Origin: an uncultured Oscillospiraceae bacterium
Lineage (GTDB): Bacteria > Bacillota > Clostridia > Oscillospirales > QAMX01
Assembly: GCA_964448855.1 (NCBI GenBank)
Contig: CAYUXI010000013.1
Location: 674-64,673 of the forward strand
Direction of reading: 5' to 3'
DNA length: 64,000 nt
This document shows, piece by piece, positions 5,654-60,514 of the stretch. Both the position numbers and the translations under genes were made by a program. How positions within the stretch are numbered: the stretch's first letter is position 1; each line of letters begins with the position of its first letter. The notes under the pieces were generated by a model that saw nothing but the letters and a program-made list of their open reading frames with translations, did not search any database and was not told where the DNA came from.

Positions 5654-7387
5654 ATGGAGTATCATCTGAAATGTTCGGACGCGTTTCGTGCGTCCTGTTC
5701 CGAGTCCTGCCCCGAGCCGGGCATTGTTTTGCTGCATCTGACTGCGGATGCCGTGGTGTCGCCCGCCAAGCTGGAGCTGACCGTTTACTGGGAGATGCCA
5801 AATGCCGGCATTGCTCTGACATGGACGCCCGGCAACTATCGGGATAAGATCGTCGGGCCGAACTGGCGGCGGCTGAACGATTCGTGTGGGATGTCCGGTG
5901 CGCCGATCTATGTGAGCGTCGGCGACCACGATCAGAACTGTCTGACCATCGCCTGCTCGGACGCTAAAAATCGTGTCGGGATGCGCACCGGTGTGATTGA
6001 GGAGAACGGCTGCATGGACTGCCGCGTCCGCATCAACGTGGACAGCGCCATTTCGCACTACGAGGCGGATATCCGTCTGGATCACCGCGACCTGCCGTTT
6101 TACAAGTCGATTCAGGATGTCCAGCGCTGGTGGACGACCTATGACGGCTATACGCCCGCACCCGTCCCGTCGGATGCGCGGGAGCCGCTCTACTCCGCCT
6201 GGTACAGCTACCATCAGGCCATCGACGTGCCCGCCATTGTGCGCGAATGTGAATACTTCGCCAAGCTGGGGGCACGTGTGTTGATCGTCGATGACGGCTG
6301 GCAGACCGATGACGGGAACCGCGGCTATGACTACTGCGGCGACTGGCAGACCGCCGCTTCCAAGGTGCCCGATATGCGCGCCTTTGTCGATGCGGTTCAC
6401 GCGCAGGGGATGAAGTTTGTCCTCTGGTATTCCGTTCCGTTCGTCGGCGAATACACCGCCGCCTATGAGCGGTTCAAGGACAAGCTGCTCGGCACACGCG
6501 GGCACAACAATACATCCAAGACGCACGTGTTTGATCCGCGCTATCCGGAGGTTCGCGCTTATCTGATTGACCTGTACCGGAAGGCCGTGCTGGATTGGGA
6601 TCTGGACGGCTTCAAGTTTGACTTTGTGGACGCCTTCTATCAGTCGGATGAAACGGCGGAGGGCATGGATTATGTCTCGGTCTACGACGCGGTGGATCGT
6701 TTGATGAAGGACGTCATTGCCGAGCTGCGCACCATCAAGCCGGACATTCTGATCGAGTTCCGGCAGTCCTACATCGGCCCGCTGATGCGCACCTTCGGCA
6801 ATATGTTCCGCGTGGGCGATTGCCCCTGCGACGCGCAATCCAACCGCCTTTCCTCCCTCGCGCTGCGGATGCTCTGCGGCAACACCGCCATTCACTCCGA
6901 CATGGTCATGTGGCATCCGGAGGTCTGTGCGGAGCAGGCGGCCTATCAGCTGACCAGCGTGCTCTTTGCCGTGCCGCAGATTTCCGTCCGGCAGGATCAG
7001 CTTTCGCCGGAGCAGGCGGAAATGGTCGCCGCGTATCTCGCGCTGTGGCGGAAATACCGGGATGTGCTGCTCGACGGGGAAATGTTCTACCATGGCTATG
7101 CCAACGATTTCCCGTATGTCTCCTCGCGCAAGGGCCATACGCAGGTCGGTGCCGTCTACGGCGGCATGATCGCCTATTTCCCGGAGGTGACCGACGAGAT
7201 CGTCCTCGTCAACGCCTCGCCGGACAGCCGCATTCTGCTGGATGCGCCCTGTGCCGGAACGTATCGCTACACCATCGCGGATTGCTGCGGCAAACCGGCC
7301 GGCAGCGGCACCGTCGTGCTCAACGGTGCCTTCCCGGTGATTGATCACGTCCCGGTCAACGGCGTGGTCACGCTGACTCGCGCATAA
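5654..7387 (+). CDS. Glycoside hydrolase family 36 (alpha-galactosidase-like)
   Basis: PLYSAWY, IVDDGWQ, DGFKFDF nucleophile motif, FRVGDCP. Confidence 0.85.
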   Translation: MEYHLKCSDAFRASCSESCPEPGIVLLHLTADAVVSPAKLELTVYWEMPNAGIALTWTPGNYRDKIVGPNWRRLNDSCGMSGAPIYVSVGDHDQNCLTIACSDAKNRVGMRTGVIEENGCMDCRVRINVDSAISHYEADIRLDHRDLPFYKSIQDVQRWWTTYDGYTPAPVPSDAREPLYSAWYSYHQAIDVPAIVRECEYFAKLGARVLIVDDGWQTDDGNRGYDYCGDWQTAASKVPDMRAFVDAVHAQGMKFVLWYSVPFVGEYTAAYERFKDKLLGTRGHNNTSKTHVFDPRYPEVRAYLIDLYRKAVLDWDLDGFKFDFVDAFYQSDETAEGMDYVSVYDAVDRLMKDVIAELRTIKPDILIEFRQSYIGPLMRTFGNMFRVGDCPCDAQSNRLSSLALRMLCGNTAIHSDMVMWHPEVCAEQAAYQLTSVLFAVPQISVRQDQLSPEQAEMVAAYLALWRKYRDVLLDGEMFYHGYANDFPYVSSRKGHTQVGAVYGGMIAYFPEVTDEIVLVNASPDSRILLDAPCAGTYRYTIADCCGKPAGSGTVVLNGAFPVIDHVPVNGVVTLTRA

Positions 7388-7398
7388 AGCATTTCAAA

Positions 7399-7435
7399 AA
7401 CCGCCCCGGGCTGTTTGACACAGCTCGGGGCGGTT
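7399..7435. terminator. Hairpin between the convergent GH36 and hypothetical genes
   Basis: AACCGCCCCGGGCTG-tttgaca-CAGCTCGGGGCGGTT. Confidence 0.75.
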
Positions 7436-7496
7436 GCATTGTCTGTTTCAGGTACGGCGCGCGGGTGGGGTGCAGAAAAATCGCGGGTGGAGTGCG

Positions 7497-8243
7497 TCAG
7501 GCATAGCGGTACAGGTTTTCCCGGCCGCTCCGGCCAACGCACGAAACGGCCTGCATGGAGACGAGCAGGTTCAGCGCCTGCTGGGCATCGCGTCGGCGGA
7601 TATGCGCCGCAGCGGCCAGAACGGCGCTGGTAAACGGTTCCTCCATCCCCTGCGGCAGCAGGGCTGCATAGTCGGCGGGTGTGCGCAGGGCGATGACGGA
7701 GCGCAGCGCGGTGGGGATTTTTTCATAGCGCGTTGCGTGGCGTTTTCGCGTTTCGCCGGTTCCATCCAGCAATCGGTATTCGTCCAGCGTCAAGCAGACG
7801 AGATCGACCGTCAGCCCCGGCATTTGCAGCCGGGATTTGAGCGCACAGAGCTCCGACAGCGCCTCCAGCGGCTTGCCGTGGAGGCGGGAGCGCCTCGTTT
7901 CCACAACCTCCCCGCTCGTCGGCTCCAGCCAGAGGATGCGCGCATCGGTCACCACCGGGCAGACGATTCGAACATCCGTCACCGGCAAAAAGGCGTCCAG
8001 CTTCCGCGCCAGCCGGTGCAGCTGTGCCGTCTGGATTTCCACGGCGCACGTTTCCGTCAAGGCATCCGTCACGTAGCCCTGCAGCTTGCGTTCGTGGCGC
8101 GTCTCGTCCGGCTCATAGAAGTATTTCAGCGTGAGGTGCAGCGTTTTTTCGCCGAGAGAGCCAATCCCGTTTTCGCCGCGCTGCGCCTCGGCGGCGCGGA
8201 GGCAGGCTTCCGCAAACGATTGCTGCTGTTCCGTCTCAGTCAA
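7497..8243 (-). CDS. Conserved hypothetical protein, possible PD-(D/E)xK nuclease-like fold
   Basis: TTG start after GGAAGGAG; GIGSLGEKTLH and YVTD...VEIQT motifs; extended -10 TGGTATAAT upstream. Confidence 0.6.
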   Translation of the reverse strand: MTETEQQQSFAEACLRAAEAQRGENGIGSLGEKTLHLTLKYFYEPDETRHERKLQGYVTDALTETCAVEIQTAQLHRLARKLDAFLPVTDVRIVCPVVTDARILWLEPTSGEVVETRRSRLHGKPLEALSELCALKSRLQMPGLTVDLVCLTLDEYRLLDGTGETRKRHATRYEKIPTALRSVIALRTPADYAALLPQGMEEPFTSAVLAAAAHIRRRDAQQALNLLVSMQAVSCVGRSGRENLYRYA

Positions 8244-52191: not shown

Positions 52192-53127
52192 TTATTGCAG
52201 ACCCATTGCCGCGTTCAGGCGTTCTGACAGCTCATGCGCGGCGTTGTAGCCCATGCGTTTGTTGCGGTCGTTCATGGCGGCGACCTCAATGATGATGGCC
52301 AGGTTGCGCCCCGGGCGCACCGGAACCGTCAGGGACGGCACGTCGATGCCCAAAATGTTCGTATATTCCGTATCCTCGCCCAGGCGGTCATAGATTTTGC
52401 CCTCTTTCCAGGGCTCCAGATGAATCACCAGATCCACCTTTTCCGTCATTTTGACGGCAGCCATACCAAACAGGCGCTTGACGTCAATGATGCCGATGCC
52501 GCGCAGCTCGACGAAGTGGCGAATGATTTCCGGCGCGCTGCCCACCAGCGTTTTCGACGAGACGCGTTTGATCTCGACGGCATCGTCGGCGATCAGGCGG
52601 TGGCCGCGCTTCACAAGCTCGATGGCCGTTTCGCTCTTGCCGACACCGCTGTCGCCCATGAGCAGAATGCCCTCGCCGTACACCTCAATCAGCACGCCGT
52701 GCCGGGTGATGCGCGGAGCCAGGTGGATTTTCAGCGCAGCGATCAGCGCGCTCAACGTGGTGGAAGAGTCTTCCTTTGTCCGCAGAATCGTCACGCCGTA
52801 CTCCTTCGCCAGCTCCAGACATTCGGGATACGGCTCAATGTTGCGCGTGATGATCAGCGCGGGAATGTTCATTTTGAAGAGCTTTTCCAGAGAGGAACGG
52901 CGGCGTTCCGGCGTAAACCGGCTCAGGAAGGTCGTTTCGACCTTGCCGATCATCTGGAGACGTTCATTGTCGAAGAAATCATAAAAACCGGCCAGCTGAA
53001 GCCCACAGCGATTGACGTCGTCCGAATAGACCAGAATATCCCGATAGCCCTCCGGTGCCGTTTCAACTGTAAAGGCCAGCTCATCAATCAGCGTTCCGAG
53101 TGCCACACTGTATCGGACACTATCCAT
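52192..53127 (-). CDS. hprK: HPr(Ser) kinase/phosphorylase
   Basis: RCGLQLAGF, HGVLIEVYGEGILLMGDSGVGKSETAIEL, ADD, ELRGIGII, PVRPGRNLAIIIEVAA. Confidence 0.97.
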   Translation of the reverse strand: MDSVRYSVALGTLIDELAFTVETAPEGYRDILVYSDDVNRCGLQLAGFYDFFDNERLQMIGKVETTFLSRFTPERRRSSLEKLFKMNIPALIITRNIEPYPECLELAKEYGVTILRTKEDSSTTLSALIAALKIHLAPRITRHGVLIEVYGEGILLMGDSGVGKSETAIELVKRGHRLIADDAVEIKRVSSKTLVGSAPEIIRHFVELRGIGIIDVKRLFGMAAVKMTEKVDLVIHLEPWKEGKIYDRLGEDTEYTNILGIDVPSLTVPVRPGRNLAIIIEVAAMNDRNKRMGYNAAHELSERLNAAMGLQ

Positions 53128-53207
53128 TTTGGAACATCTCCTCTCTGTTGTGAACCGGTGCATTTCCGTCGCGAAAAGCTCCCGGTTCCAATTCTCATCC
53201 ATTCTTT

Positions 53208-53237
53208 ATTATACCATATCTGTGCCCTTTCCTGCAA
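53208..53237 (-). promoter_or_regulatory. SigA promoter of hprK
   Basis: TTGCAG-18-TATAAT with extended TG. Confidence 0.6.
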
Positions 53238-53282
53238 GTCTGTGCCGTTCGGAACGGGGCGATTTCTTCTCCACTACACGCA

Positions 53283-53311
53283 TTGACGTGCGAATCGATC
53301 TATGGTATACT
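53283..53311 (+). promoter_or_regulatory. SigA promoter of the nucleotidyltransferase gene, divergent from hprK
   Basis: TTGACG-17-TATACT with extended TG at 53303-53304. Confidence 0.7.
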
Positions 53312-53413
53312 GAATTAGGAGTTCCTCGACCCGTGCATGAGCCGCGTGATGTCTCCATGACGTATGATTGTCCTGTCAGCCAGCCGTTTTTGATGAGAGG
53401 AGTGTGTCCTTCC

Positions 53414-55102
53414 ATGCCATCTATGACCGATCGATTGATGCAGTTTCTTCAGCTGCACGCATCTGCCAAATCCCCTGCAGCGTTGGATGTCGTCGCTTTC
53501 CTGTCCGCACACCGTGTTCCCCTGCCGAGCGCCGCAGCGCCTGAAGATCTGGGTCAGAAAATTCAGCTGATTACGCAGCAGTATGTCCAGACAAAGCTGC
53601 TCAATGCCATGCAGGAGTTGCTTTTGTGTTTCCAATCGCACAGCATCGACATCCTGTTTCTGAAAGGTCCGCTGCTGGGATTGGAGCTGTATGGTGAAAC
53701 CGGAATCCGTCCAACGTCCGATCTCGATCTGTTTGTTCCGGATGCTCAGGTTGCCGATGCGCTGGAGGCATTGACGCAGCTCGGTTATACCCGAACAAAC
53801 GGCACGCCCTACTCCGGGAAGGATCGTGTTTATGACCTGAACCGTGGCGATATGCGTCTGAAAATGATGGGGCGACATCTGACTGCCGTTCGATCTTCCA
53901 AAAACTGGACGATCACGCTGGAATTGCACGCCACGCTGTTTCGGCACTATGATACCGTTTCACCAACCTCTTTGGCATCACAGGCAGACCTGATTGTTTC
54001 TGACAGCCGCACCCTATCCTGTCAGGGGGTTGACTATCCCGTTCCGGGCGTTTTGGATTCGTTCCTGATGCTCTGCACGCACTTTGCACGGCATACGGTG
54101 GAAGCAGTGACCGCATTCTGTGCCAAAAAGCAGCAGCCGCGTTTTCCGCTGCATCAGCTGCATGATCTCGCACTCTTTTTTGAGCACTGGTCGGATGTGC
54201 TGTCAGCTTCCGACCTTTTGGCGCGTGCCATAGCGTTCGGCAGTCAGGCCGATCTGGCATTTGCCTGCCGCTATCTGCAGGAGGTTTACGGAATCGACCT
54301 TTGGCAATCCATTGCCCCTGATCTTTTGGGTGAAGCCGATGATGATTTTGAAAACGATATCGTATGGAGCATTTTGCGGCAGCTTTCCGCCACAGAGCTG
54401 CTGTTTTGCGCACCATCAGACAATCTTGCCCGTTTGAAAAGCGTTGCTCCTGCTCGCCGCTGTTATGAGCTCCAGACCGGGCGCGAGCTTTCTGCCGTTC
54501 TGGCCGACTGCGAGGTTCGGGAGGTCTTTGATGATCCGTCCCGGCCACCTTTGCGGGAGCCTTATTCCTTTCGTTGGGGTGCTGCGCGTTCAGATGATCA
54601 GCTCATGTTTTGCGTGGAAATTCCAACAGAGCGTGTTGTTTTTCTGGAAGGATGCCAGAAAAACTTTCGTCGCAACTGTACCCGCTCCGACTGTCCGAGA
54701 GACTGTGCTGCGCAGCACGGCGCCAACACGCTGATTCGTTTGCTGCTGCCCGGAACCTGCTGTTCAGTCGAGGCCGGAAGCTGCATGAATCGCTATGAAA
54801 TCAGCGTGATCCAGACAGCAGAAGGTCTCCGGATAACCGCAGACCGCAATGGGCATCCATTTGCTCTATCCGGTGCGGCTGTTGCAGAGAAAGATGGCTG
54901 CTGGCAATTTCGGTTTCAGTTGCCGATACCTGATCCCGGCGATTCCAACGCGCTGCCTTTTATGATTTCCCGTGAAATTCTGCTTCCATTTGCTCACCGT
55001 CCGGATCAGGCCATCGCCTTCAGCGTGCGCTGGCTGAACAGTGTGGCGGTTTCACATCAGACCTGTCTGAGCTGCGGGCTGCTGCTGGCATCCCGCCGGT
55101 GA
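53414..55102 (+). CDS. Nucleotidyltransferase family protein (NTP_transf_5-like) with a C-terminal extension
   Basis: FLKGPLLGLELYGETGIRPTSDLDLFV signature, LELH, LCTHFARH, LHDLAL; RBS GAGAGGAG. Confidence 0.8.
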   Translation: MPSMTDRLMQFLQLHASAKSPAALDVVAFLSAHRVPLPSAAAPEDLGQKIQLITQQYVQTKLLNAMQELLLCFQSHSIDILFLKGPLLGLELYGETGIRPTSDLDLFVPDAQVADALEALTQLGYTRTNGTPYSGKDRVYDLNRGDMRLKMMGRHLTAVRSSKNWTITLELHATLFRHYDTVSPTSLASQADLIVSDSRTLSCQGVDYPVPGVLDSFLMLCTHFARHTVEAVTAFCAKKQQPRFPLHQLHDLALFFEHWSDVLSASDLLARAIAFGSQADLAFACRYLQEVYGIDLWQSIAPDLLGEADDDFENDIVWSILRQLSATELLFCAPSDNLARLKSVAPARRCYELQTGRELSAVLADCEVREVFDDPSRPPLREPYSFRWGAARSDDQLMFCVEIPTERVVFLEGCQKNFRRNCTRSDCPRDCAAQHGANTLIRLLLPGTCCSVEAGSCMNRYEISVIQTAEGLRITADRNGHPFALSGAAVAEKDGCWQFRFQLPIPDPGDSNALPFMISREILLPFAHRPDQAIAFSVRWLNSVAVSHQTCLSCGLLLASRR

Positions 55103-55203
55103 AGCTTTCGTCGTTTGCTGCAGCCGCCAATTCGCAAAGCCGAATCGGCTGATTATCGAACCTGTACTCGACACATTTGCCAGACCGGGACATCGCATAT
55201 GAA

Positions 55204-55402
55204 TTGAAGGATTTTTACAATTTTGGTGTTGGTATGGTGGTGTATTTGTGAAAGCGCAGACTGAACCTGTTTCAGGTGATGTCTGCGCTTTTTTCGTTTT
55301 TTTGTAAAGAAACGGCCATACCATTGCACCGACAAGGAATCAATAAGGAGAAGGTCGGATCATGGGAACTGAATGGAAAAAGAGTCGGTATGCATTCTTT
55401 AT
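55204..55402 (+). repeat. Copy 1 of the duplicated rSAM leader plus first 13 codons
   Basis: 55204-55296 matches 55547-55638 (2 substitutions, 1 T indel); 55338-55402 is identical to 55687-55751 (65 bp). Confidence 0.95.
55251..55294 (+). terminator. Intrinsic terminator-like hairpin in leader copy 1
   Basis: AAAGCGCAGAC...GTCTGCGCTTT followed by a T-tract. Confidence 0.7.
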
Positions 55403-55433
55403 GTTTTCTATGTTTCTTTCACTAAGCTCTTGA
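55362..55433 (+). pseudogene. Truncated 5' stub of the rSAM gene (MGTEWKKSRYAFF + 10 unrelated residues)
   Basis: Identical RBS and first 13 codons to the 55711 CDS, then TGA at 55431-55433. Confidence 0.75.
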
Positions 55434-55458
55434 CAGTCGAATGAAAATCTGATATAAT
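55430..55458 (+). promoter_or_regulatory. Perfect-consensus SigA promoter upstream of the rSAM operon
   Basis: TTGACA (55430-55435), 17 nt, TATAAT (55453-55458). Confidence 0.9.
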
Positions 55459-55546
55459 TTAGATAATTAAAGAATTCAATGATTTCATCAGTAAGCAACC
55501 AGATGAGCCCGCACTCAGTTTAGCATGCAAAGAAACCGCATGGTAT

Positions 55547-55751
55547 TTGAAGGATTTTTACAGTTTTGGTGTTGGTATGGTGGTGTATTTGTGAAAGCGC
55601 AGACTGAGCCTGTTTCAGGTGATGTCTGCGCTTTTTCGGGCTTTGCCAAGAAAAATCAAAACCGGTCATACCATTTATCAGCAAGTAATCAATAAGGAGA
55701 AGGTCGGATCATGGGAACTGAATGGAAAAAGAGTCGGTATGCATTCTTTAT
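55547..55751 (+). repeat. Copy 2 of the duplicated leader (the one attached to the intact rSAM gene)
   Basis: See copy 1; contains hairpin 55594-55634, RBS AAGGAG and ATG 55711. Confidence 0.95.
55594..55636 (+). terminator. Terminator-like hairpin inside the rSAM 5' leader (attenuator candidate)
   Basis: 11-bp stem plus T5 between the promoter and the start codon. Confidence 0.65.
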
Positions 55752-57033
55752 TGAGCAGGAAAATGGCGAAATGATCATTTATCATTCGGCAACAGGTTTT
55801 ATCTTACAATGTACAGAACCGGAATACATTGAAAAGGCAGTAAAGATCGCCAATCAATCCGTTTTTGAAATGGATGAAGAAAATGACCTGATGTGTTTGC
55901 TACGAGACAAAGGCGTTCTTTTGGCAAACGATTTTGACGAAGATGCTCAAGTTCGGCAATTGTACGATCGGGTCGTTATGCACAGGAATCAACTTTCTCT
56001 GACATTAATTGTAACGAGGCAGTGTAATTTCCGTTGCGTTTACTGCGGTCAGAAACACGAGAGCAACAAGCGTATGTCTCGTGAAGTCTATGATAGAATC
56101 ATATCGTTGATCGAAAAAACATGCCATGATAAAAAGATAGACAGTGTCTCTGTTTCTTTTTTTGGCGGAGAACCGCTTTTGGAATGTGAAAGAATTCTAT
56201 ATTTTTTGGATAAATTACAGGAATTTTCAAAAAAGACCGGGATTCCCTATTATGCAGGAATGACCACAAATGCATATTTGCTGACGAAAAATAATTTTGA
56301 GCGTTTGGCACAGCTGAATTGTTTGGATTATCAAATAACACTGGATGGTATGGATGAGACTCATGACCAAAAAAGATATCTCATAGGAAAAAGGAAAACA
56401 TGGAAAACCATCGTAGATAATCTGCTCTATATCAAGTCAACAGATTATCCTTTTAAAATCATTTTGAGGACAAATTTCGATACAGAAGTTTTGCAATCAG
56501 TAGATTCTTATTTGAATTTCGTATCGGAAAATTTGAATGATGATCGTATCCTGATGTATCATGAAACCATTAAAGACCACGGGAATCCCGAACAAAACGA
56601 ATACATGTCGCAATCTGAAGCAATTTTCAGCAATGTCGAAATTTCCCGTCTTTTGAAAGAGAAGAATTTGAAATCGTCACTTGTTTTTTCTTCAACAACC
56701 CCTGCCTGTTCGATGTGTCGAGCAGGAATTCCTGATTATTATGTAATCGATTACGATGGAAGTATCAAAAGATGTACTCACCGATTGGATACCGAACCAA
56801 ACTACCTAGGAAATCTGTCAGATGATGGTTCCATGATCATTGACCATTCTCTGGATGCAAAATGGATTTATCGGGACTATTTGTCTGATGATAAATGTAA
56901 AGAGTGCAAATTACTTCCTCTGTGTTTTGGAAAACGTTGTCCTGTTGCGCGGGTAGACCCCCAATTGGCGTTCGACTGTAACAAAGATTTACGTGCTTTG
57001 GAATTGGAGGAAATCCTACGCGTTCATTTGTAA
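55711..57033 (+). CDS. Radical SAM/SPASM peptide maturase
   Basis: CNFRCVYC (CxxxCxxC), FFGGEPLL, TTNAYLL, QITLDG; SPASM Cys ACSMC, KRC, CKECKLLPLCFGKRCP, FDC; ~85-aa N-terminal extension (RRE-like). Confidence 0.92.
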   Translation: MGTEWKKSRYAFFIEQENGEMIIYHSATGFILQCTEPEYIEKAVKIANQSVFEMDEENDLMCLLRDKGVLLANDFDEDAQVRQLYDRVVMHRNQLSLTLIVTRQCNFRCVYCGQKHESNKRMSREVYDRIISLIEKTCHDKKIDSVSVSFFGGEPLLECERILYFLDKLQEFSKKTGIPYYAGMTTNAYLLTKNNFERLAQLNCLDYQITLDGMDETHDQKRYLIGKRKTWKTIVDNLLYIKSTDYPFKIILRTNFDTEVLQSVDSYLNFVSENLNDDRILMYHETIKDHGNPEQNEYMSQSEAIFSNVEISRLLKEKNLKSSLVFSSTTPACSMCRAGIPDYYVIDYDGSIKRCTHRLDTEPNYLGNLSDDGSMIIDHSLDAKWIYRDYLSDDKCKECKLLPLCFGKRCPVARVDPQLAFDCNKDLRALELEEILRVHL

Positions 57034-57074
57034 AGAGACAGGATAAACTATTCAGGAAGAAAGGAGGATCAAGT

Positions 57075-57212
57075 ATGCATGTGATTCAAGATGCAGCGAC
57101 CCCCGCAGTGATTGCACGCAGAGCGCAAAGCAATGGTTGTGATTGCAATTGTGATTGTCATGGTGGTTCCGGTAGCTCCGGGGGAACCAATTGCAATTGT
57201 CATTGCAGCTAA
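57075..57212 (+). CDS. Cys-rich RiPP precursor 1, 45 aa: MHVIQDAATPAVIARRAQSNGCDCNCDCHGGSGSSGGTNCNCHCS
   Basis: Manual translation, not in the ORF track; strong RBS GAAAGGAGG 6 nt upstream; 7 Cys; paralogous to precursor 2. Confidence 0.88.
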   Translation: MHVIQDAATPAVIARRAQSNGCDCNCDCHGGSGSSGGTNCNCHCS

Positions 57213-57246
57213 TCGTCCCAATCTGCACAACAATTTTATTGAAAGG

Positions 57247-57390
57247 ATGAGAAAATACCATATCTTAAAAGACATTACGATTCCTGCGTCCATTGCACGC
57301 AACAACCAGGAAAATGGTTGTGATTGCGATTGTAATGAAGGTTGCAATGGCGGTTCTGCCGGTAGAAATTGCCACTGTCTTTGCAGCTAA
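57247..57390 (+). CDS. Cys-rich RiPP precursor 2, 47 aa: MRKYHILKDITIPASIARNNQENGCDCDCNEGCNGGSAGRNCHCLCS
   Basis: 3' half of track ORF 57112-57390; aligns with precursor 1 in leader and core; start uncertain because GAAAGG abuts the ATG. Confidence 0.82.
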   Translation: MRKYHILKDITIPASIARNNQENGCDCDCNEGCNGGSAGRNCHCLCS

Positions 57391-57397
57391 GCCGTCT

Positions 57398-57437
57398 GTC
57401 ACGGCAGGCAGATTTTTTGAAATCTGCCTGCCGTGAC
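57398..57437 (+). other. 18-bp perfect stem-loop between the precursors and the ABC gene
   Basis: GTCACGGCAGGCAGATTT-tttg-AAATCTGCCTGCCGTGAC; no strong U-tract follows. Confidence 0.85.
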
Positions 57438-57483
57438 TCCAAATCTTTCCAATCATCCAACACACAGAAAAGAGGATTCTGTT

Positions 57484-59298
57484 ATGAAAACCTTGAAAAG
57501 GGTACTTGGCTGCCAGTCTTTTATGCTAAAGCGAATGTATCGGGACAGCAAGCGGCTTTTTTATGTGACACTGATTCAGTCGATTCTGACCGGTATGTAT
57601 CCAACCATCGAGCTGGTTATCAGTAGGAACCTGATTGATGCCCTGGTACGGCTTTCCCTGCGGAATGCCATGATCAGTATTGCACTCCTGATCGGCAGCT
57701 CTCTGCTCTATTACGTTCTGAAAAAGCTGCTGAGCTTGATTGCTGCCAATTCATATCAGCTGATTCGACGCCAGATGCGGTTTGATCTTTTTGAAAAGAC
57801 CTGTTCTCTCGATCTGGCCGTGGCAGATTTGCCGGAAAACAGAACCCTGTATGAAGAAGCGCATGGTGCCAATCAGAACAACCGATGTATGCGTGTTCTG
57901 GATTCCTTTTTCAGCATTTTCACCGCCTGTATCACGTTGATTTCTTCCTATATCGTGATGATCGCGGTCGATCCATGGATTATGATTGTCATTGTCGCAG
58001 TGGTGATTCTGCAATCATTTATCACCATTCGCTCGCAGAAGCTGGCTTATGAGACCTGGCGGGAAGATGCCCGAACCAACAAGGAGGCGTCCTATGTTCT
58101 GGGGTTGCTGTTTGACCGCAACTGTGCCTTTGAAATGCGGCTGCACAATCTGTCACAATGGGTCATTCGGAAATACAACAAGGTGCAGACCAAATCCGAT
58201 CAGCTCTGGCTTGAAAATAACAAAAAGCAGCAGAGAAACGATGTTTTGAATTTTGCCGTACAGCTGGTGCAGAAAGCAATTCTTTACGTTTACCTGGCGC
58301 TGCAGATGCTTTACGCCAATATGACCATTGCGAATTTCACGCTGTGCTTCAATTCTCTGAACCAGATTTCCAACAATCTGGTCGCCCTGATCCGCACATT
58401 TATTGATATTTTTGAGGATTCCAAGTATATTTACAGCTATAAGAAATATCTGGCGTTGGAAAACACAATTGCCGTCCATCGGCCGGATGAAAAGCCGGTC
58501 GCCAGAAATGAAGCCCGCAACAACGAAATTGTCTTTGATCACGTCAGCTTCCGTTATCCGGAAGCACCGGCAGACGTTCTGCACGATATCAACCTGCATC
58601 TGGAGCCGCAGAAGTTTTATGTCATCGTCGGTGCGAACGGCGCCGGGAAAACGACGCTGATCAATCTGCTGATGCGTTTGTATGATCCGTCGAGCGGTTC
58701 GATTCGTTTGGGGCCAACCGATATTCGCGACTATGATTTTCAAAGCTATCGGGACTGTTTCGGTGCGGTTTTCCAGAATTTCAAGGTTTTTGATTATTCG
58801 TTCTTTGAAAACATCACGCTGTCCGAAGAGGAAAACGAGGAGATCGATGCAGAGGTTCAGCAGGTCATTCAGAAGGCCGGATTGGCCAACAAGGTGTCGC
58901 AGCTTGCCAAAGGGATGCACACCTGTGTCGGTAAAGCGTTTGACCAGGATGGCATCAAGTTATCCGGCGGCGAATACCAGAAGGTTGCTCTGGCCAGAGC
59001 GCTGTACAGAGACAGTCAGATTCTGATTCTGGACGAGCCATCCAGCGCGTTGGATGCATTGGCAGAGGATGATTTGATTCAGACCTTCCAGCGAGCCAGC
59101 ACCAACCAGACGGTTTTCTATATATCGCACCGTCTCTCCGTGGCACGCTTTGCATATCGCGTGATTTTTATCGGCGATCATACGATTTTGGGCTACGGCA
59201 GCCACGACGAGCTGATGCAGACCTGTCCGCAGTATGCAGAGATGTATACGGCACAGGCCAAATATTACACGGAAACAGAAACTGCCCCTTCGCACTGA
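57484..59298 (+). CDS. ABC exporter (fused TMD + NBD), no C39 peptidase domain
   Basis: TM helices followed by VGANGAGKTTL, LSGGEYQKVALARA, LILDEPSSALD, ISHRLS. Confidence 0.93.
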   Translation: MKTLKRVLGCQSFMLKRMYRDSKRLFYVTLIQSILTGMYPTIELVISRNLIDALVRLSLRNAMISIALLIGSSLLYYVLKKLLSLIAANSYQLIRRQMRFDLFEKTCSLDLAVADLPENRTLYEEAHGANQNNRCMRVLDSFFSIFTACITLISSYIVMIAVDPWIMIVIVAVVILQSFITIRSQKLAYETWREDARTNKEASYVLGLLFDRNCAFEMRLHNLSQWVIRKYNKVQTKSDQLWLENNKKQQRNDVLNFAVQLVQKAILYVYLALQMLYANMTIANFTLCFNSLNQISNNLVALIRTFIDIFEDSKYIYSYKKYLALENTIAVHRPDEKPVARNEARNNEIVFDHVSFRYPEAPADVLHDINLHLEPQKFYVIVGANGAGKTTLINLLMRLYDPSSGSIRLGPTDIRDYDFQSYRDCFGAVFQNFKVFDYSFFENITLSEEENEEIDAEVQQVIQKAGLANKVSQLAKGMHTCVGKAFDQDGIKLSGGEYQKVALARALYRDSQILILDEPSSALDALAEDDLIQTFQRASTNQTVFYISHRLSVARFAYRVIFIGDHTILGYGSHDELMQTCPQYAEMYTAQAKYYTETETAPSH

Positions 59299-59313
59299 GA
59301 GGAGCTGATTATC

Positions 59314-60192
59314 GTGCCTGTATATTGTATATACGGTTTGTCCGTGGAATCCAATCTCGACTTGTCTGATGTAGATGCAGGTCATCCGGGGATCTGTGAT
59401 ATGCGGCTCCATGTGTCCTTTGCAGAAATGCCACCGGTTCAGCCCATACGGATTCTGGAATCTGAGCAATGGTTGACCATTGAGCTCTTCCCCTTCGCGG
59501 TTTATCGGTTGAGCAGGCATTCCAATGATGTTTTTTGTCAGGCTGCGGATTATGAGTCCTTTTACTCAACATTTTTCAATCTGCCGTTTTCGGTCTTTCT
59601 TGTACAACGCGGCGATCTGCTTTTGCATGCCTCATCACTGGTTCACAGTCAGACAGGTGAGTTGCTCGCTTTTGCCGGACAGAAAGGTGTCGGAAAAAGT
59701 ACGCTGGTACAACTTCTGTGTGGGGAAACGTATCAGATTTATGCAGATGATACCCTACGAATTCCGATGGATACCTCAATGGGATTTCGAGGAAATTCGC
59801 TTTTGAAAATAACACCGGAGACATCTGCCCTCATTCAGGGCAGGCTGCAACTGACGGGACATCAAAATGCAGTCGGAAAAAATTATGCAGCTATTCCAAC
59901 AGACTCCCGGCAACGTCAGATTCGGGCAATTGTTCAATTGGCACGAACTTCGGATGCGTCTTTTTCCATCCGACCGGTGAACACCCCGTTACAGCGTACA
60001 CAAATCATCTGCAGGCACCTGACAGGTATCCCATTCTGGACAGCTTCTATGATTCAAAAGGTCATGCAGCTTGTCAAAAGCGTTGAAATACCTGTTTATT
60101 CCATGCGAATCCCCGATTCTCTGCATTGGTTGGAGCAGCAAACGCCGGACATACGCTCTGCGCTTGAACAGGTAACGAACGAAATTCCCTGA
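59314..60192 (+). CDS. HPr-kinase-like protein of the lasso-cluster (PadeK/PsmK-like) type
   Basis: N-terminal YCIYGLSVESNL, LLHASSL, GQKGVGKSTL Walker A, YADD; GTG start after GAGGAG. Confidence 0.75.
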   Translation: MPVYCIYGLSVESNLDLSDVDAGHPGICDMRLHVSFAEMPPVQPIRILESEQWLTIELFPFAVYRLSRHSNDVFCQAADYESFYSTFFNLPFSVFLVQRGDLLLHASSLVHSQTGELLAFAGQKGVGKSTLVQLLCGETYQIYADDTLRIPMDTSMGFRGNSLLKITPETSALIQGRLQLTGHQNAVGKNYAAIPTDSRQRQIRAIVQLARTSDASFSIRPVNTPLQRTQIICRHLTGIPFWTASMIQKVMQLVKSVEIPVYSMRIPDSLHWLEQQTPDIRSALEQVTNEIP

Positions 60193-60201
60193 CATCCATT
60201 C

Positions 60202-60237
60202 AAAAAGCGTCTGCACGCATTTTGTGCAGACGCTTTT
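60202..60237. terminator. Bidirectional terminator closing the RiPP operon
   Basis: AAAAGCGTCTGCAC-gcatttt-GTGCAGACGCTTTT. Confidence 0.85.
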
Positions 60238-60321
60238 GCGTGTCGTCATGAGGAAAAACGCCTTTTGTCGGATAACAGGTCATTTTCTCTGTGATTCAAG
60301 GAGATCTGTAACTTCACATTT
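60202..60321 (-). ncRNA. Candidate ~120-nt small RNA
   Basis: Lies between a minus-strand TTGACA-17-TATAAA promoter and the bidirectional terminator; no convincing ORF. Confidence 0.4.
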
Positions 60322-60327
60322 CAGAGC

Positions 60328-60356
60328 TTTATAATACCGCAGTATTTGTTTGTCAA
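60328..60356 (-). promoter_or_regulatory. Near-consensus SigA promoter facing the RiPP operon terminator
   Basis: TTGACA (60356-60351), 17 nt, TATAAA (60333-60328). Confidence 0.7.
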
Positions 60357-60473
60357 CGGTTTCCTGAAAAGACACTGAAAAGATGCAACTGCAAAGGGAG
60401 CCATTGGTCGTTGAAAAGCAAGCCAACAAGAAGAGATGTACAGACATGATCGGCTGTATGGCGTGCGTGAAGC

Positions 60474-60514
60474 CAAGAAAGAATCCGCAGGTCGTTGAAA
60501 CAGCCTGCGGATTC
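60474..60514 (-). terminator. clpB terminator
   Basis: GAATCCGCAGG...CCTGCGGATTC followed by TTTCTT on the minus strand. Confidence 0.75.

What the first reader, a model, noticed from the sequence alone, without database searches (positions are those of the whole stretch)
57075..57390. Two paralogous precursor peptides with a CxCxC...CxCxCS core; the first is missed by the ORF track
P1 MHVIQDAATPAVIARRAQSNG-CDCNCDCHGGSGSSGGTNCNCHCS and P2 MRKYHILKDITIPASIARNNQENG-CDCDCNEGCNGGSAGRNCHCLCS share a leader motif H(V/I)(I/L)xDxxxPAxIARxxQxNG. Each has exactly 7 Cys in two alternating-Cys blocks joined by a Gly/Ser linker. Residues between the Cys are mostly Asp/Asn/His; Asp is a known ranthipeptide beta-carbon acceptor (freyrasin). 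The spacing differs from the SCIFF pattern. P1 has an ideal RBS while P2's GAAAGG directly abuts its ATG, which suggests unequal expression. An alternative reading is a metallothionein-like metal-binding product.
Basis: partly seen in the sequence, partly recalled or inferred. Interest (0 to 1): 0.88.

Follow-up and report, generated by a model that had tools for sequence, protein, structure and literature searches.

The report
Cys-rich peptide precursors beside radical-SAM maturase
Two small tandem genes encode real, conserved cysteine-rich precursor peptides of an uncurated and rare family that always sits next to a radical-SAM maturase and an exporter, and whose invariant final serine travels with a kinase-like and a nucleotidyltransferase gene, which points to a peptide natural product with an unusual tail modification.

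Summary
P1 (57075-57212, 45 aa) and P2 (57247-57390, 47 aa) are 55% identical. They are the only CxCxC...CxCxC stretches in the six-frame translation of the window; 200 shuffles gave none.

They lie in a low-GC island that reads NTP_transf_5, rSAM/SPASM, P1, P2, ABC exporter, HPrK-like P-loop protein. Every peptide homologue I could place sits directly beside a homologue of this rSAM (39-94% identity), including homologues found by a peptide-only search. No Pfam or NCBIfam model covers the peptides. Only six peptide clusters turned up among 1.84 billion representative proteins.

The rSAM model matches CteB over its full length, including an N-terminal leader-binding domain and a full SPASM domain.

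The best reading is that these are RiPP precursors cross-linked through their cysteines and then exported. Whether the links go to Asp/Asn beta-carbons or to Gly/Ser alpha-carbons cannot be decided here.

A new point: wherever the HPrK-like and NTP_transf_5 genes are present, the peptides end in Ser. In relatives that lack those genes, they do not. This parallels the C-terminal Ser phosphorylation and glycosylation of the lasso peptides paeninodin and pseudomycoidin.

P2 is the weaker paralogue, with a poor or non-canonical start and pN/pS of 0.56. A metal-binding product is not excluded.

The parts
53129..55102 (+). NTP_transf_5 (uncharacterised nucleotidyltransferase) protein with a long C-terminal extension. 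The likely true start is the ATG at 53414, because the 5' part of the ORF overlaps hprK on the other strand.
   Evidence: PF14907 hit, E 1.2e-29, residues 138-388. Start candidates. The gene is conserved in related clusters L001, L002-L005, L081, L210-L214.
55189..55402 (+). Upstream copy of a 343-349-bp tandem duplication. It contains a terminator-like hairpin plus T-run (55251-55300), the rSAM ribosome-binding site and the first 13 rSAM codons.
   Evidence: Direct repeats D1/D2 at 92-99% identity; sequence read. The close relative L214 carries a single copy.
55430..55458 (+). Consensus sigma-70-type promoter: TTGACA, 17 nt, TATAAT, with an extended -10 TG. It is the candidate operon promoter.
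   Evidence: 12 of 12 match. A near-identical element, TTGACA-17-TATAAC, lies upstream of the L214 leader.
55594..55634 (+). Hairpin in the 5' leader between the promoter and the rSAM start. It is the second copy of the repeat and a possible attenuator.
   Evidence: No Rfam family matches.
55711..57033 (+). Radical SAM/SPASM peptide maturase, 440 aa. It has C105-x3-C109-x2-C112, a fused N-terminal RRE-like domain, and 7-8 SPASM cysteines (C333/C336, C355, C396, C399, C405, C410, C423).
   Evidence: PF04055 hit. The best NCBIfam models are CefB, TIGR04463, geopeptide, Clo7bot, FlmE/OhkG and PapB, all far below their cutoffs. AF2 model pLDDT 92. Foldseek top hits are CteB 5WHY/5WGG at TM 0.7 over about 450 columns, then TigE, anSME and ChlB.
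57060..57067 (+). Shine-Dalgarno sequence AAAGGAGG for P1, 7 nt before the ATG.
   Evidence: It is identical in L001 and L215, and an equivalent AAAGGAGG stands before every homologue.
57075..57212 (+). P1 precursor peptide, 45 aa. Leader is residues 1-21 (MHVIQDAATPAVIARRAQSNG) and core is residues 22-45 (CDCNCDCHGGSGSSGGTNCNCHCS).
   Evidence: Homologues. pN/pS is 0.26-0.35 against L215 and L001.
57247..57390 (+). P2 precursor peptide, 47 aa if the ATG at 57247 is used. The conserved part begins at H5 (HILKD...). The core is CDCDCNEGCNGGSAGRNCHCLCS.
   Evidence: Orthologues in L001, L215, P0128 and P0129 keep the frame across 6-nt and 12-nt in-frame indels and keep the outer Cys. pN/pS is 0.56.
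57398..57437 (+). Perfect 18-bp hairpin just after the P2 stop, with no T-run. It is probably a partial terminator or mRNA stabiliser that raises precursor transcript levels relative to downstream genes.
   Evidence: -34.2 kcal/mol, z = -8.7, 0 of 200 shuffles fold as well. Conserved in L001, L214 and L215.
57484..59298 (+). ABC exporter with fused permease and ATPase, 604 aa, and no C39 peptidase domain.
   Evidence: PF00005 hit plus MsbA and bacteriocin-exporter-like NCBIfam hits. It is syntenic in all related clusters.
59314..60192 (+). HPrK-related (ScmC-like) P-loop protein, 292 aa. It has the P-loop GQKGVGKS and invariant D145-D146, 17 residues after the P-loop Lys, the same spacing as in the genuine HPrK encoded in this window.
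   Evidence: NCBIfam HprK_rel_B E 1.7e-5, ScmC 0.004, HprK_rel_A 0.03. BLASTP against the window's HPrK gives E 3e-4 over the P-loop and ADD region. hhalign gives E 4.5e-4, probability 33%. PF07475 is weak in 3 of 12 members. AF2 pLDDT is 64, and the top PDB hits are PEP carboxykinases at E 4e-8. A Tistrella homologue is annotated Hpr(Ser) kinase.

Best explanation
P1 and P2 are ribosomally made precursor peptides (RiPP precursors) of one biosynthetic operon.

Shown: the genes are real and conserved, they are always adjacent to this rSAM family, and the cassette is conserved.

Inferred mechanism:
1. The roughly 21-residue leader (M-x-[IV]-[IVL]-x-D ... IAR..Q.NG) is bound by the RRE-like N-terminal domain of the rSAM/SPASM enzyme.
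2. The enzyme uses 5'-deoxyadenosyl radical chemistry and its two auxiliary Fe-S clusters to join the Cys thiols of the two CxCxC strands to carbon atoms of acceptor residues. Acceptors could be C-beta of the interleaved Asp/Asn, as in PapB and NxxcB, or C-alpha of the Gly/Ser loop, as in StsB. The result would be a compact, hairpin-like, multiply thioether-bridged core of about 24 residues.
3. The invariant C-terminal Ser is then phosphorylated by the HPrK-like protein and further decorated by the NTP_transf_5 protein. This is by analogy with PadeK/PsmK and PsmN of the lasso peptides paeninodin and pseudomycoidin.
4. The ABC transporter exports the product. The leader protease is unknown, since the cluster encodes neither a C39 domain nor any other protease.

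P1 is the main substrate. P2 is a lineage-specific tandem duplicate with weaker translation signals.

Rough sub-confidences: RiPP precursors of this rSAM 0.9; Cys-derived thioether cross-links 0.55; C-terminal Ser phosphorylation or decoration 0.45.
For: Reality and conservation:
- The double CxCxC block occurs only at P1 and P2 in the window, and 0 times in 200 shuffles.
- P1 has an ideal SD.
- pN/pS is 0.26-0.35 for P1 and 0.56 for P2, against 0.13 for the rSAM.

Linkage to the rSAM:
- rSAM-first retrieval found a CxCxC peptide next to the enzyme in L001-L005, L081-L089 and L210-L213.
- Peptide-first retrieval by HMM over 1.84 billion proteins gave 6 peptides. The two I could place, P0131 and P0132, sit between an rSAM homologue (61% and 48% identity) and the ABC gene.

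Enzyme:
- It has the CxxxCxxC motif and a full SPASM Cys set.
- The AF2 model has pLDDT 92 and its best structural match is the thioether synthase CteB, including the N-terminal domain. The profile search hits CteB at E 2.4e-22.
- Three of the six 'catalytic proximity' positions are identical or conservative to CteB (F151, T185, T210). Only one of six is conservative to the sactisynthase StsB.

Chemistry precedents:
- PapB links Cys to Asp (abstract listed).
- StsA, with CxCxCx4GxGxG, forms three nested Cys-Gly sactionines.

Tail modification:
- In 12 clusters that carry the HPrK-like gene, 14 of 15 peptides end in Ser even though their cores differ widely (CNCRCS, GACS, NPGCS, CIATS, GYTS, NCGS, SSCS).
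- In about 12 relatives without the HPrK-like and NTP5 genes, peptides end in A, N, C or E.
- PsmK (HprK family) phosphorylates a C-terminal Ser, and PsmN (an uncharacterised NTase) adds hexose to the phosphate (PMC6993621).
- The DD motif that was mutated in PsmK has an invariant counterpart here, D145-D146.

Operon logic: a consensus promoter, a strong hairpin after the precursors and an exporter.
Against: - No modification has been observed, so all chemistry is by analogy.
- The rSAM scores far below the curated cutoff of every characterised family: PapB 112 bits against 340, CefB 181 against 600. Its reaction could therefore be different.
- The HPrK relationship is weak at sequence level (hhalign probability 33%). 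The structural model is of only moderate quality (pLDDT 64), and its top hits are PEPCK rather than HPrK itself.
- The link between terminal Ser and the kinase-like gene is essentially one clade against its sister, so it is not a set of independent events.
- One counter-example exists. P1 of L001 (= P0001) has lost its stop codon and ends ...CSQPSKSNKVVD.
- I could not verify from sequence that PsmN belongs to PF14907.
- No leader peptidase is encoded.
- P2 lacks a properly spaced SD here and lacks any ATG/GTG/TTG start in L001 and L215.
Confidence: 0.6

Rival explanations
1. The product is a metal-binding peptide. The exported core keeps most of its thiols free, or only partly cross-linked, and chelates Cu(I), Zn or Cd through Cys, His and Asp. 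It would act as a metallothionein-like metallophore or detoxifier. The rSAM would provide only limited stabilising links or a different modification.
For: The core holds 7 Cys plus His, Asp and Asn in 24 residues, with two facing CxCxC strands. From memory and not tested here, fungal Cu-metallothioneins have a similar size, 7 Cys and a Gly/Ser/Asn-rich CxC pattern. ZIP-family metal permease genes lie next to the homologous clusters in L210 (two copies) and L211.
Against: No metallothionein family hit appears in Pfam or NCBIfam. ZIP genes are absent from the window and from all other loci, and L210 and L211 may share ancestry. A leader peptide, an RRE-bearing rSAM and an exporter make up the classic RiPP logic, in which the Cys are normally consumed. 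Distant family members have GCGCGC cores without His or Asp.
Confidence: 0.15
2. Only P1 is functional. P2 is a decaying tandem duplicate that is poorly translated or not translated.
For: GAAAGG abuts the P2 ATG. In L001 and L215 the P2 orthologue has AAAGGAGG but only ATT or ATA as possible starts. P2 pN/pS is 0.56 against 0.26-0.35 for P1. P2 shows repeat-slippage indels and a Ser-to-Cys change in the linker. rSAM relatives at 60-66% identity carry a single peptide.
Against: The reading frame and all six outer Cys, the NG junction, the PA.IAR leader motif and the terminal Ser are kept in four independent versions (window, P0128, L001, L215/P0129), despite many substitutions and in-frame indels. 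pN/pS is still below 1. ATT and ATA starts, or coupling to P1 termination 35 nt upstream, are possible.
Confidence: 0.3
3. The rSAM performs non-thioether chemistry on the peptide, such as epimerisation, C-C or C-O cross-links, or oxidation of Cys or Ser. The Cys would then form disulfides after export, giving a disulfide-rich bacteriocin.
For: All matches to characterised families are far below cutoff. Structural neighbours include enzymes that do not form thioethers: TigE (cyclopropyl synthase), anSME and ChlB. SPASM enzymes are functionally diverse (PMC10288494).
Against: The only invariant side chains of the core across the whole family are the Cys. The best sequence and structure match is a thioether synthase. 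The nearest NCBIfam families all act on Cys-rich peptides.
Confidence: 0.12
4. The ORFs are chance products of low-complexity DNA and are not genes.
For: They are short and repetitive (TGYRAY repeats), and gene callers often miss them or call them in the wrong frame (in L081 a different frame was called).
Against: 0 of 200 shuffles reproduce the pattern. The peptides are conserved down to 39-48% rSAM identity, keep a strong SD and a fixed position, and have pN/pS below 1.
Confidence: 0.02

Closest known systems
Ranthipeptides made by QhpD/CteB/PapB-type rSAM-SPASM enzymes (thermocellin/CteB, freyrasin/PapB, NxxcB)
   Same: The maturase architecture is the same: a fused N-terminal RRE, an rSAM barrel and a full SPASM domain. 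The best structural hit is CteB (TM 0.7) and the profile E-value is 2.4e-22. The core is C-terminal and Cys-rich, and Asp and Asn, the known beta-carbon acceptors, are interleaved with the Cys. An exporter lies in the operon.
   Different: The enzyme scores far below the PapB and ScfB family cutoffs (112 of 340 bits and 55 of 425 bits). The Cys spacing is CxCxC rather than Cx3D or SCIFF. Family members with Gly-only spacers cannot form non-alpha links at those positions. The HPrK-like and NTP_transf_5 tailoring genes are not part of known ranthipeptide clusters.
StsA/StsB and BlaA/BlaB hairpin sactipeptides (PMC10288494)
   Same: A CxCxC donor block is followed by a Gly-rich acceptor segment. 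In StsA, alternate residues pair across a hairpin to give three nested thioethers.
   Different: StsB is MftC-like and needs a separate RRE protein (StsC). Here the rSAM is CteB-like with a fused RRE. Only 1 of 6 catalytic-proximity positions is similar to StsB. These peptides carry a second CxCxC block and a terminal Ser that StsA lacks.
Uncharacterised Cys-rich peptide maturase families in NCBIfam: CefB (Cys-every-fifth), TIGR04463, geopeptide, Clo7bot, CcpM
   Same: These are the nearest sequence relatives of the rSAM (E 1e-53 to 1e-26), and all are paired with short Cys-rich peptides and transporters.
   Different: Scores are 3-4 times below each family's cutoff. The precursor peptides match none of the curated peptide models. 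The chemistry of these neighbour families is itself not established, to my knowledge.
C-terminal Ser phosphorylation and glycosylation of the lasso peptides paeninodin (PadeK) and pseudomycoidin (PsmK, PsmN)
   Same: An HPrK-family P-loop protein and an uncharacterised nucleotidyltransferase are encoded together with a precursor whose last residue is an invariant Ser. The DD metal-binding motif is conserved.
   Different: No lasso cyclase or B1/B2 genes are present. The scaffold enzyme is an rSAM instead. Homology of the 292-aa protein to HPrK-type kinases is only weakly supported by sequence. The activity is untested.
Metallothioneins
   Same: Small size, about 30% Cys, CxC motifs and a Gly/Ser/Asn-rich composition.
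   Different: These peptides have a leader, a dedicated rSAM maturase and an exporter. They give no family hit. Metallothioneins are cytosolic and unmodified.

Membership tests
rSAM/SPASM-dependent RiPP (generic) | A short precursor gene lies adjacent to an rSAM enzyme with CxxxCxxC and a SPASM auxiliary-cluster Cys motif. | tested here: met
   The adjacency is conserved in all homologous loci.
rSAM/SPASM-dependent RiPP (generic) | A leader-recognition (RRE) domain is present on or next to the maturase. | tested here: met
   The AF2 model shows an N-terminal beta-strand and helix domain (residues 1-90). The Foldseek alignment to CteB spans about 450 columns and includes its N-terminal domain. 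No separate PqqD-like gene was found.
Ranthipeptide | The maturase belongs to a characterised ranthisynthase family (PapB, ScfB/CteB or QhpD). | tested here: not met
   PapB 112.5 bits against a 340-bit cutoff, SCIFF maturase 54.9 against 425, QhpD 61.3 against 453. The enzyme is homologous to these families but lies outside all of them.
Ranthipeptide | Thioether from Cys S to a non-alpha carbon of the acceptor residue. | not testable with these tools
   This needs MS/MS, NMR or isotope labelling of the modified peptide.
Sactipeptide | Thioether from Cys S to the alpha-carbon of the acceptor residue. | not testable with these tools
   Gly-only spacers in distant members make C-alpha linkage the only option at those positions, but nothing was measured.
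SCIFF (TIGR03973 peptide with TIGR03974 maturase) | The peptide matches the SCIFF model and is paired with ScfB. | tested here: not met
   P1 and P2 match no NCBIfam family at E up to 1, and the ScfB model scores far below its cutoff.
StsA-type hairpin sactipeptide | CxCxCx4GxGxG core, an MftC-like rSAM and a discrete RRE protein. | tested here: not met
   The core has CxCxC plus a Gly/Ser loop, but with different spacing and a second Cys block. MftC is not among the top 25 NCBIfam hits. The RRE is fused. Catalytic-proximity positions match StsB at 0 of 6 identical and 1 of 6 similar.
HPrK-family peptide kinase with NTase tailoring pair (as in paeninodin and pseudomycoidin) | HPrK-type P-loop and DD catalytic motif in the kinase-like protein. 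| tested here: inconclusive
   The P-loop and DD motif have the same spacing as in the window's genuine HPrK. Scores are weak (HprK_rel_B E 1.7e-5; hhalign probability 33%). The fold search gives the PEPCK class from a model with pLDDT 64.
HPrK-family peptide kinase with NTase tailoring pair (as in paeninodin and pseudomycoidin) | The substrate peptide ends in Ser. | tested here: met
   14 of 15 peptides in HPrK-like-positive clusters end in Ser. None does in the clusters that lack the gene. The exception is the stop-loss P1 of L001.
HPrK-family peptide kinase with NTase tailoring pair (as in paeninodin and pseudomycoidin) | Phosphate, with or without hexose, on the terminal Ser of the product. 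| not testable with these tools
   This needs MS of the product with and without the two genes.
Metallothionein | Match to a metallothionein family, with no leader or maturase. | tested here: not met
   There are no Pfam or NCBIfam hits, and a leader and maturase are present.

The most novel reading that the evidence does not exclude
This may be a new RiPP class: a hairpin peptide stapled by up to seven radical-SAM thioethers between two facing CxCxC strands, with an O-phospho(glycosyl)serine at its C-terminus. That would be the first use of the HPrK-like kinase and NTP_transf_5 tailoring pair outside lasso peptides. The product might act as an exported metal-binding or antimicrobial molecule in gut Oscillospiraceae.
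Probability: 0.3. Interest if true: 0.8.

Novelty: new variant of a known kind. Interest (0 to 1): 0.62.

Why it matters
rSAM/SPASM enzymes that act on Cys-rich peptides form a large clade that is mostly uncharacterised, and linkage chemistry and ring topology cannot be predicted from sequence. This family offers a compact, symmetrical substrate of 3+3 or 4+3 alternating Cys.

The family also has natural variants whose spacers are Asp/Asn, Gly or hydrophobic residues. That makes it a good system for asking what determines alpha- versus beta-carbon attack and ring pairing.

If the invariant terminal Ser is phosphorylated or glycosylated, the HPrK-like and nucleotidyltransferase module would be shown to be a portable RiPP tailoring unit rather than a peculiarity of lasso peptides.

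The producers are gut Oscillospiraceae, so the product could matter for competition or metal handling in the gut. The peptides are routinely missed or mis-called by gene finders, which explains why the family is not curated.

Tried and rejected
- The word-indexed protein search with the P1+P2 profile found only one homologue, P0001. Small ORFs are rarely called.
- The search for related loci with a peptide alignment on metagenome contigs found 174 pattern matches but none confirmed. The tblastn low-complexity filter may be to blame.
All were chance matches in unrelated frames. This is uninformative about distribution.
- Literature searches for CefB, Clo7bot, geopeptide and OhkG returned only unrelated acronyms. 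'GCGCGC' with radical SAM gave nothing relevant. The supplements of PMC10288494 are not held. PF14907 gave nothing useful. No paper combines HprK, radical SAM and precursor peptide.
- Rfam found no riboswitch or leader family upstream of the rSAM or around the peptides.
- A sequence-only PDB search with the HPrK-like protein picked up only generic P-loops.
- SCIFF membership was rejected.
- A ZIP-transporter association was tested and found in only 2 loci.
- L214 was considered as a case of 'peptide without rSAM'. It was rejected because it is a deletion that fuses rSAM codon ~60 to the remnant of a peptide core, so it is a dead cluster.
Full report
OBSERVATION. P1 is 57075-57212 (45 aa). It is preceded by AAAGGAGG at 57060-57067 and a 7-nt spacer. 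P2 is 57247-57390 (47 aa), and GAAAGG directly abuts its ATG. The two are 55% identical. They share a leader (H-[VI]-[IL]-x-D-x3-PA-x-IAR-x2-Q-x-NG), a core that begins CDC.C, and an end C.C.CS. P1 has 4+3 alternating Cys. P2 also has seven Cys, but as 3+1+3: the extra one sits in the linker, where orthologues have Ser. The pattern CxCxC-(5-20)-CxCxC occurs only at these two places in the six-frame translation of the 64-kb window, and never occurred in 200 local-composition shuffles.

SURROUNDINGS. The peptides lie in a five-gene cassette on the + strand. Its parts are:
- an NTP_transf_5 protein (PF14907; 53129/53414-55102);
- an rSAM/SPASM enzyme (55711-57033);
- P1 and P2;
- a perfect 18-bp hairpin (57398-57437; -34.2 kcal/mol, z = -8.7);
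- an ABC exporter without a peptidase domain (57484-59298);
- a 292-aa P-loop protein (59314-60192).

The cassette is a low-GC island (35-51% against about 60% in the flanks). It sits between a genuine hprK gene and clpB. A 12/12 consensus promoter with an extended -10 lies at 55430-55458. Between that promoter and the rSAM start there is a terminator-like hairpin.

RELATIVES. The rSAM has hundreds of homologues. I fetched genome and metagenome loci around them and scanned for small Cys-rich ORFs. A peptide of the same design lies immediately beside the enzyme in every case where the contig allows a look.
- At 94% rSAM identity (L001, L215) both P1 and P2 are present.
- At 60-66% (L081-L089) there is a single peptide, MSII.D..NPE.IARELQRNG-CDCNC[DN]CHGG..GSSGGSNCNCRCS.
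- At 39-48% (L002-L005, L210-L213, L218) the cores diverge strongly but still begin C[DN]CxC and end in Ser.
- At about 37% (Tissierella, Tepidibacter, Lachnospiraceae; L006-L017) the leaders are M-x-I-I-R-D and the cores are GCGCGC-type.

A peptide-only HMM search of 1.84 billion representative proteins found just six peptides, all ending CS. The two I could place genomically (P0131, P0132) sit between an rSAM homologue and the ABC gene.

The one locus without an rSAM, L214, lies at the same chromosomal site. There a deletion has fused rSAM codon ~60 to the tail of a peptide core, so the cluster is dead and is not a free-standing peptide gene.

No Pfam or NCBIfam model matches any of these peptides.

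ARE THEY UNDER SELECTION? Against L001, pN/pS values are:
- P1: 0.35 (0.26 against L215);
- P2: 0.56;
- rSAM: 0.13;
- ABC exporter: 0.12.

P2 keeps its frame across 6-nt and 12-nt indels and keeps the six outer Cys, the NG junction, the leader motif and the terminal Ser in four versions. Its translation signals are odd, however. Here the ancestral AAAGGAGG has become AAAGGATG, which creates an ATG with no spacer. In L001 and L215 the SD is intact, but only ATT or ATA follow it. So P2 is probably expressed, though less than P1.

THE ENZYME. It carries C105-x3-C109-x2-C112 and a complete SPASM cysteine set. Its closest curated families are CefB, TIGR04463, geopeptide, Clo7bot, FlmE/OhkG and PapB. 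All of these are maturases of Cys-rich peptides, but every score is several-fold below the family cutoff. An AlphaFold model (pLDDT 92) matches the thioether synthase CteB over about 450 columns (TM 0.7), N-terminal leader-binding domain included. TigE, anSME and ChlB follow. A family profile hits CteB at E 2.4e-22.

I mapped the six 'catalytic site proximity' positions defined for CteB in PMC10288494 (F112, F152, T186, S210, H363, Q364) onto the HMMER alignment. The window enzyme has G113, F151, T185, T210, T356 and H357. That is two identical and one conservative against CteB, but only one conservative against the hairpin sactisynthase StsB (Y, T, I, S, K, L). This leans weakly towards the CteB/ranthisynthase side.

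WHICH CHEMISTRY? The only core side chains conserved across the whole family are the cysteines, so Cys-based cross-linking is the economical reading. Two precedents pull in different directions. PapB links Cys to Asp, which fits the interleaved Asp/Asn here. StsB converts CxCxCx4GxGxG into three nested Cys-Gly sactionines, which fits the Gly/Ser loop and the GCGCGC relatives, where only alpha-carbons are available. I cannot decide between them, and the family may well be mixed. In the minimal members (L002, P0131) the core is 3+3 Cys separated by 9-11 residues, which suggests a hairpin.

A NEW OBSERVATION: THE TAIL. The 292-aa protein has a P-loop and an invariant Asp-Asp pair 17 residues after the P-loop lysine. 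That spacing is exactly the one seen in the bona fide HPrK encoded 6 kb upstream. It gives weak hits to HprK-related kinase B, ScmC and Hpr_kinase_C, and a relative is marked PF27840 ScmC. A moderate-quality model falls in the PEP-carboxykinase fold class. From established structural knowledge, that is the class to which the HPrK catalytic domain belongs.

An HMM of this protein finds it in every cluster of the 39-94% rSAM clade with enough contig, and in none of L006-L027. NTP_transf_5 accompanies it. In the clusters that have it, 14 of 15 peptides end in Ser, although the rest of the core is highly variable. In those without it, peptides end in Ala, Asn, Cys or Glu.

This is the gene pair that modifies the C-terminal Ser of lasso peptides. 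PsmK/PadeK (HprK family) phosphorylates that Ser, and PsmN (an 'uncharacterised nucleotidyltransferase') adds hexose to the phosphate. PsmK is inactivated by mutating a DD motif (PMC6993621; PMC7533575). I therefore propose phosphorylation, and possibly further decoration, of Ser45 of P1 and Ser47 of P2.

Caveats on the tail proposal:
- The Ser/kinase correlation is one clade against its sister, not a set of independent events.
- The kinase homology is weak.
- L001's P1 has lost its stop codon and carries ten extra residues.
- I could not obtain PsmK or PsmN sequences for direct comparison.
- I found no paper that links HprK-type genes with rSAM RiPPs. This is absence from the searchable library, not proof of novelty.

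ALTERNATIVES. A metallothionein-like or metallophore product is not excluded. The composition fits, and ZIP permease genes adjoin two homologous clusters, but they are absent here and elsewhere, and there is no family hit. The rSAM could also carry out other chemistry, given how far it lies from characterised families. Chance ORFs are effectively excluded.

COMPARISON AND NOVELTY. The system works like an rSAM/SPASM thioether RiPP pathway. It is not a member of SCIFF, the PapB family or the StsB type, because defining features were tested and not met. It is best described as a new variant: an uncurated, rare precursor family with a CxCxC...CxCxC-Ser design, paired with a CteB-like but unassigned maturase and, unusually, an HPrK-like plus NTP_transf_5 tailoring pair. 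The producers are uncultured gut Oscillospiraceae and relatives.

VERDICT. The finding is real and was interpreted correctly in outline. The ranthipeptide assignment is premature. The most interesting lead is the C-terminal serine module. Interest 0.62.

Noticed in passing
window 55189-55402 and 55532-55751: A tandem duplication with 343-349 bp spacing and 92-99% identity. It copies a terminator-like hairpin, the rSAM ribosome-binding site and the first 13 rSAM codons. The upstream copy encodes a 21-aa stub (MGTEWKKSRYAFFMFSMFLSL). A perfect consensus promoter (55430-55458) lies between the copies. The close relative L214 has only one copy.
   Followed up: partly
L214 5812-6102 (same chromosomal site as the window): A natural deletion derivative. 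rSAM codon ~60 is fused to the remnant of a peptide core (...DCNCKCLGNAGGSKCNCHCS in another frame). NTP_transf_5, the ABC gene and the HPrK-like gene remain intact. The cluster is decaying in that strain.
   Followed up: yes
L001 7364-7693; L215 1355-1690: In L001 the P1 stop codon TAA has become CAA, adding QPSKSNKVVD. The same extension is seen in the independently assembled P0001. In both L001 and L215, P2 follows in the same frame after a single TGA, has a strong AAAGGAGG and has no ATG, GTG or TTG start, only ATT or ATA.
   Followed up: partly
window 52192-53202 (-) and 59314-60192 (+): The genuine HPr kinase/phosphorylase gene lies immediately next to the island that carries the HPrK-like paralogue. 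The same juxtaposition is seen in L214. It may be coincidence, or it may reflect the insertion site.
   Followed up: no
window about 55000-60500: The cassette is a low-GC island (rSAM 35-41%, other genes 44-51%) in a genome of about 60% GC, between hprK and clpB. This is consistent with horizontal acquisition.
   Followed up: partly
L210 3341-4132 and 5393-6178; L211 12189-12977: ZIP-family metal permease genes (57-70% identical to one another) lie next to two homologous clusters. They were found in none of about 100 other loci, nor in the window.
   Followed up: yes
L081 11132-12964; L210 12163-13847: Some related clusters add a PP-binding carrier protein and an unannotated protein of about 480-520 aa after NTP_transf_5. 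L081 also has a second ABC exporter, a second NTP_transf_5 and a glyoxalase-fold gene. These may be further tailoring steps that the window lacks.
   Followed up: no
L211 8310-9036: The HPrK-like gene appears split into two overlapping ORFs, through a frameshift or an assembly error. The precursor, a triple-repeat core ending GYTS, lies upstream rather than downstream of the rSAM.
   Followed up: no
L217 (Tistrella mobilis plasmid pTM1, NC_017957.2 about 608.8-614.3 kb): The only plasmid hit to the HPrK-like protein is a gene annotated 'Hpr(Ser) kinase/phosphatase'. It is flanked by two sulfotransferases, a nucleotidyltransferase family protein and a glycosyltransferase. This is another instance of the kinase-like and NTase pairing in a probable peptide-tailoring context.
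   Followed up: no
L081 7419-7541: The public gene call in the peptide region is in the wrong frame. The real peptide ORF is 7361-7501. This illustrates why the family is under-represented in protein databases.
   Followed up: yes
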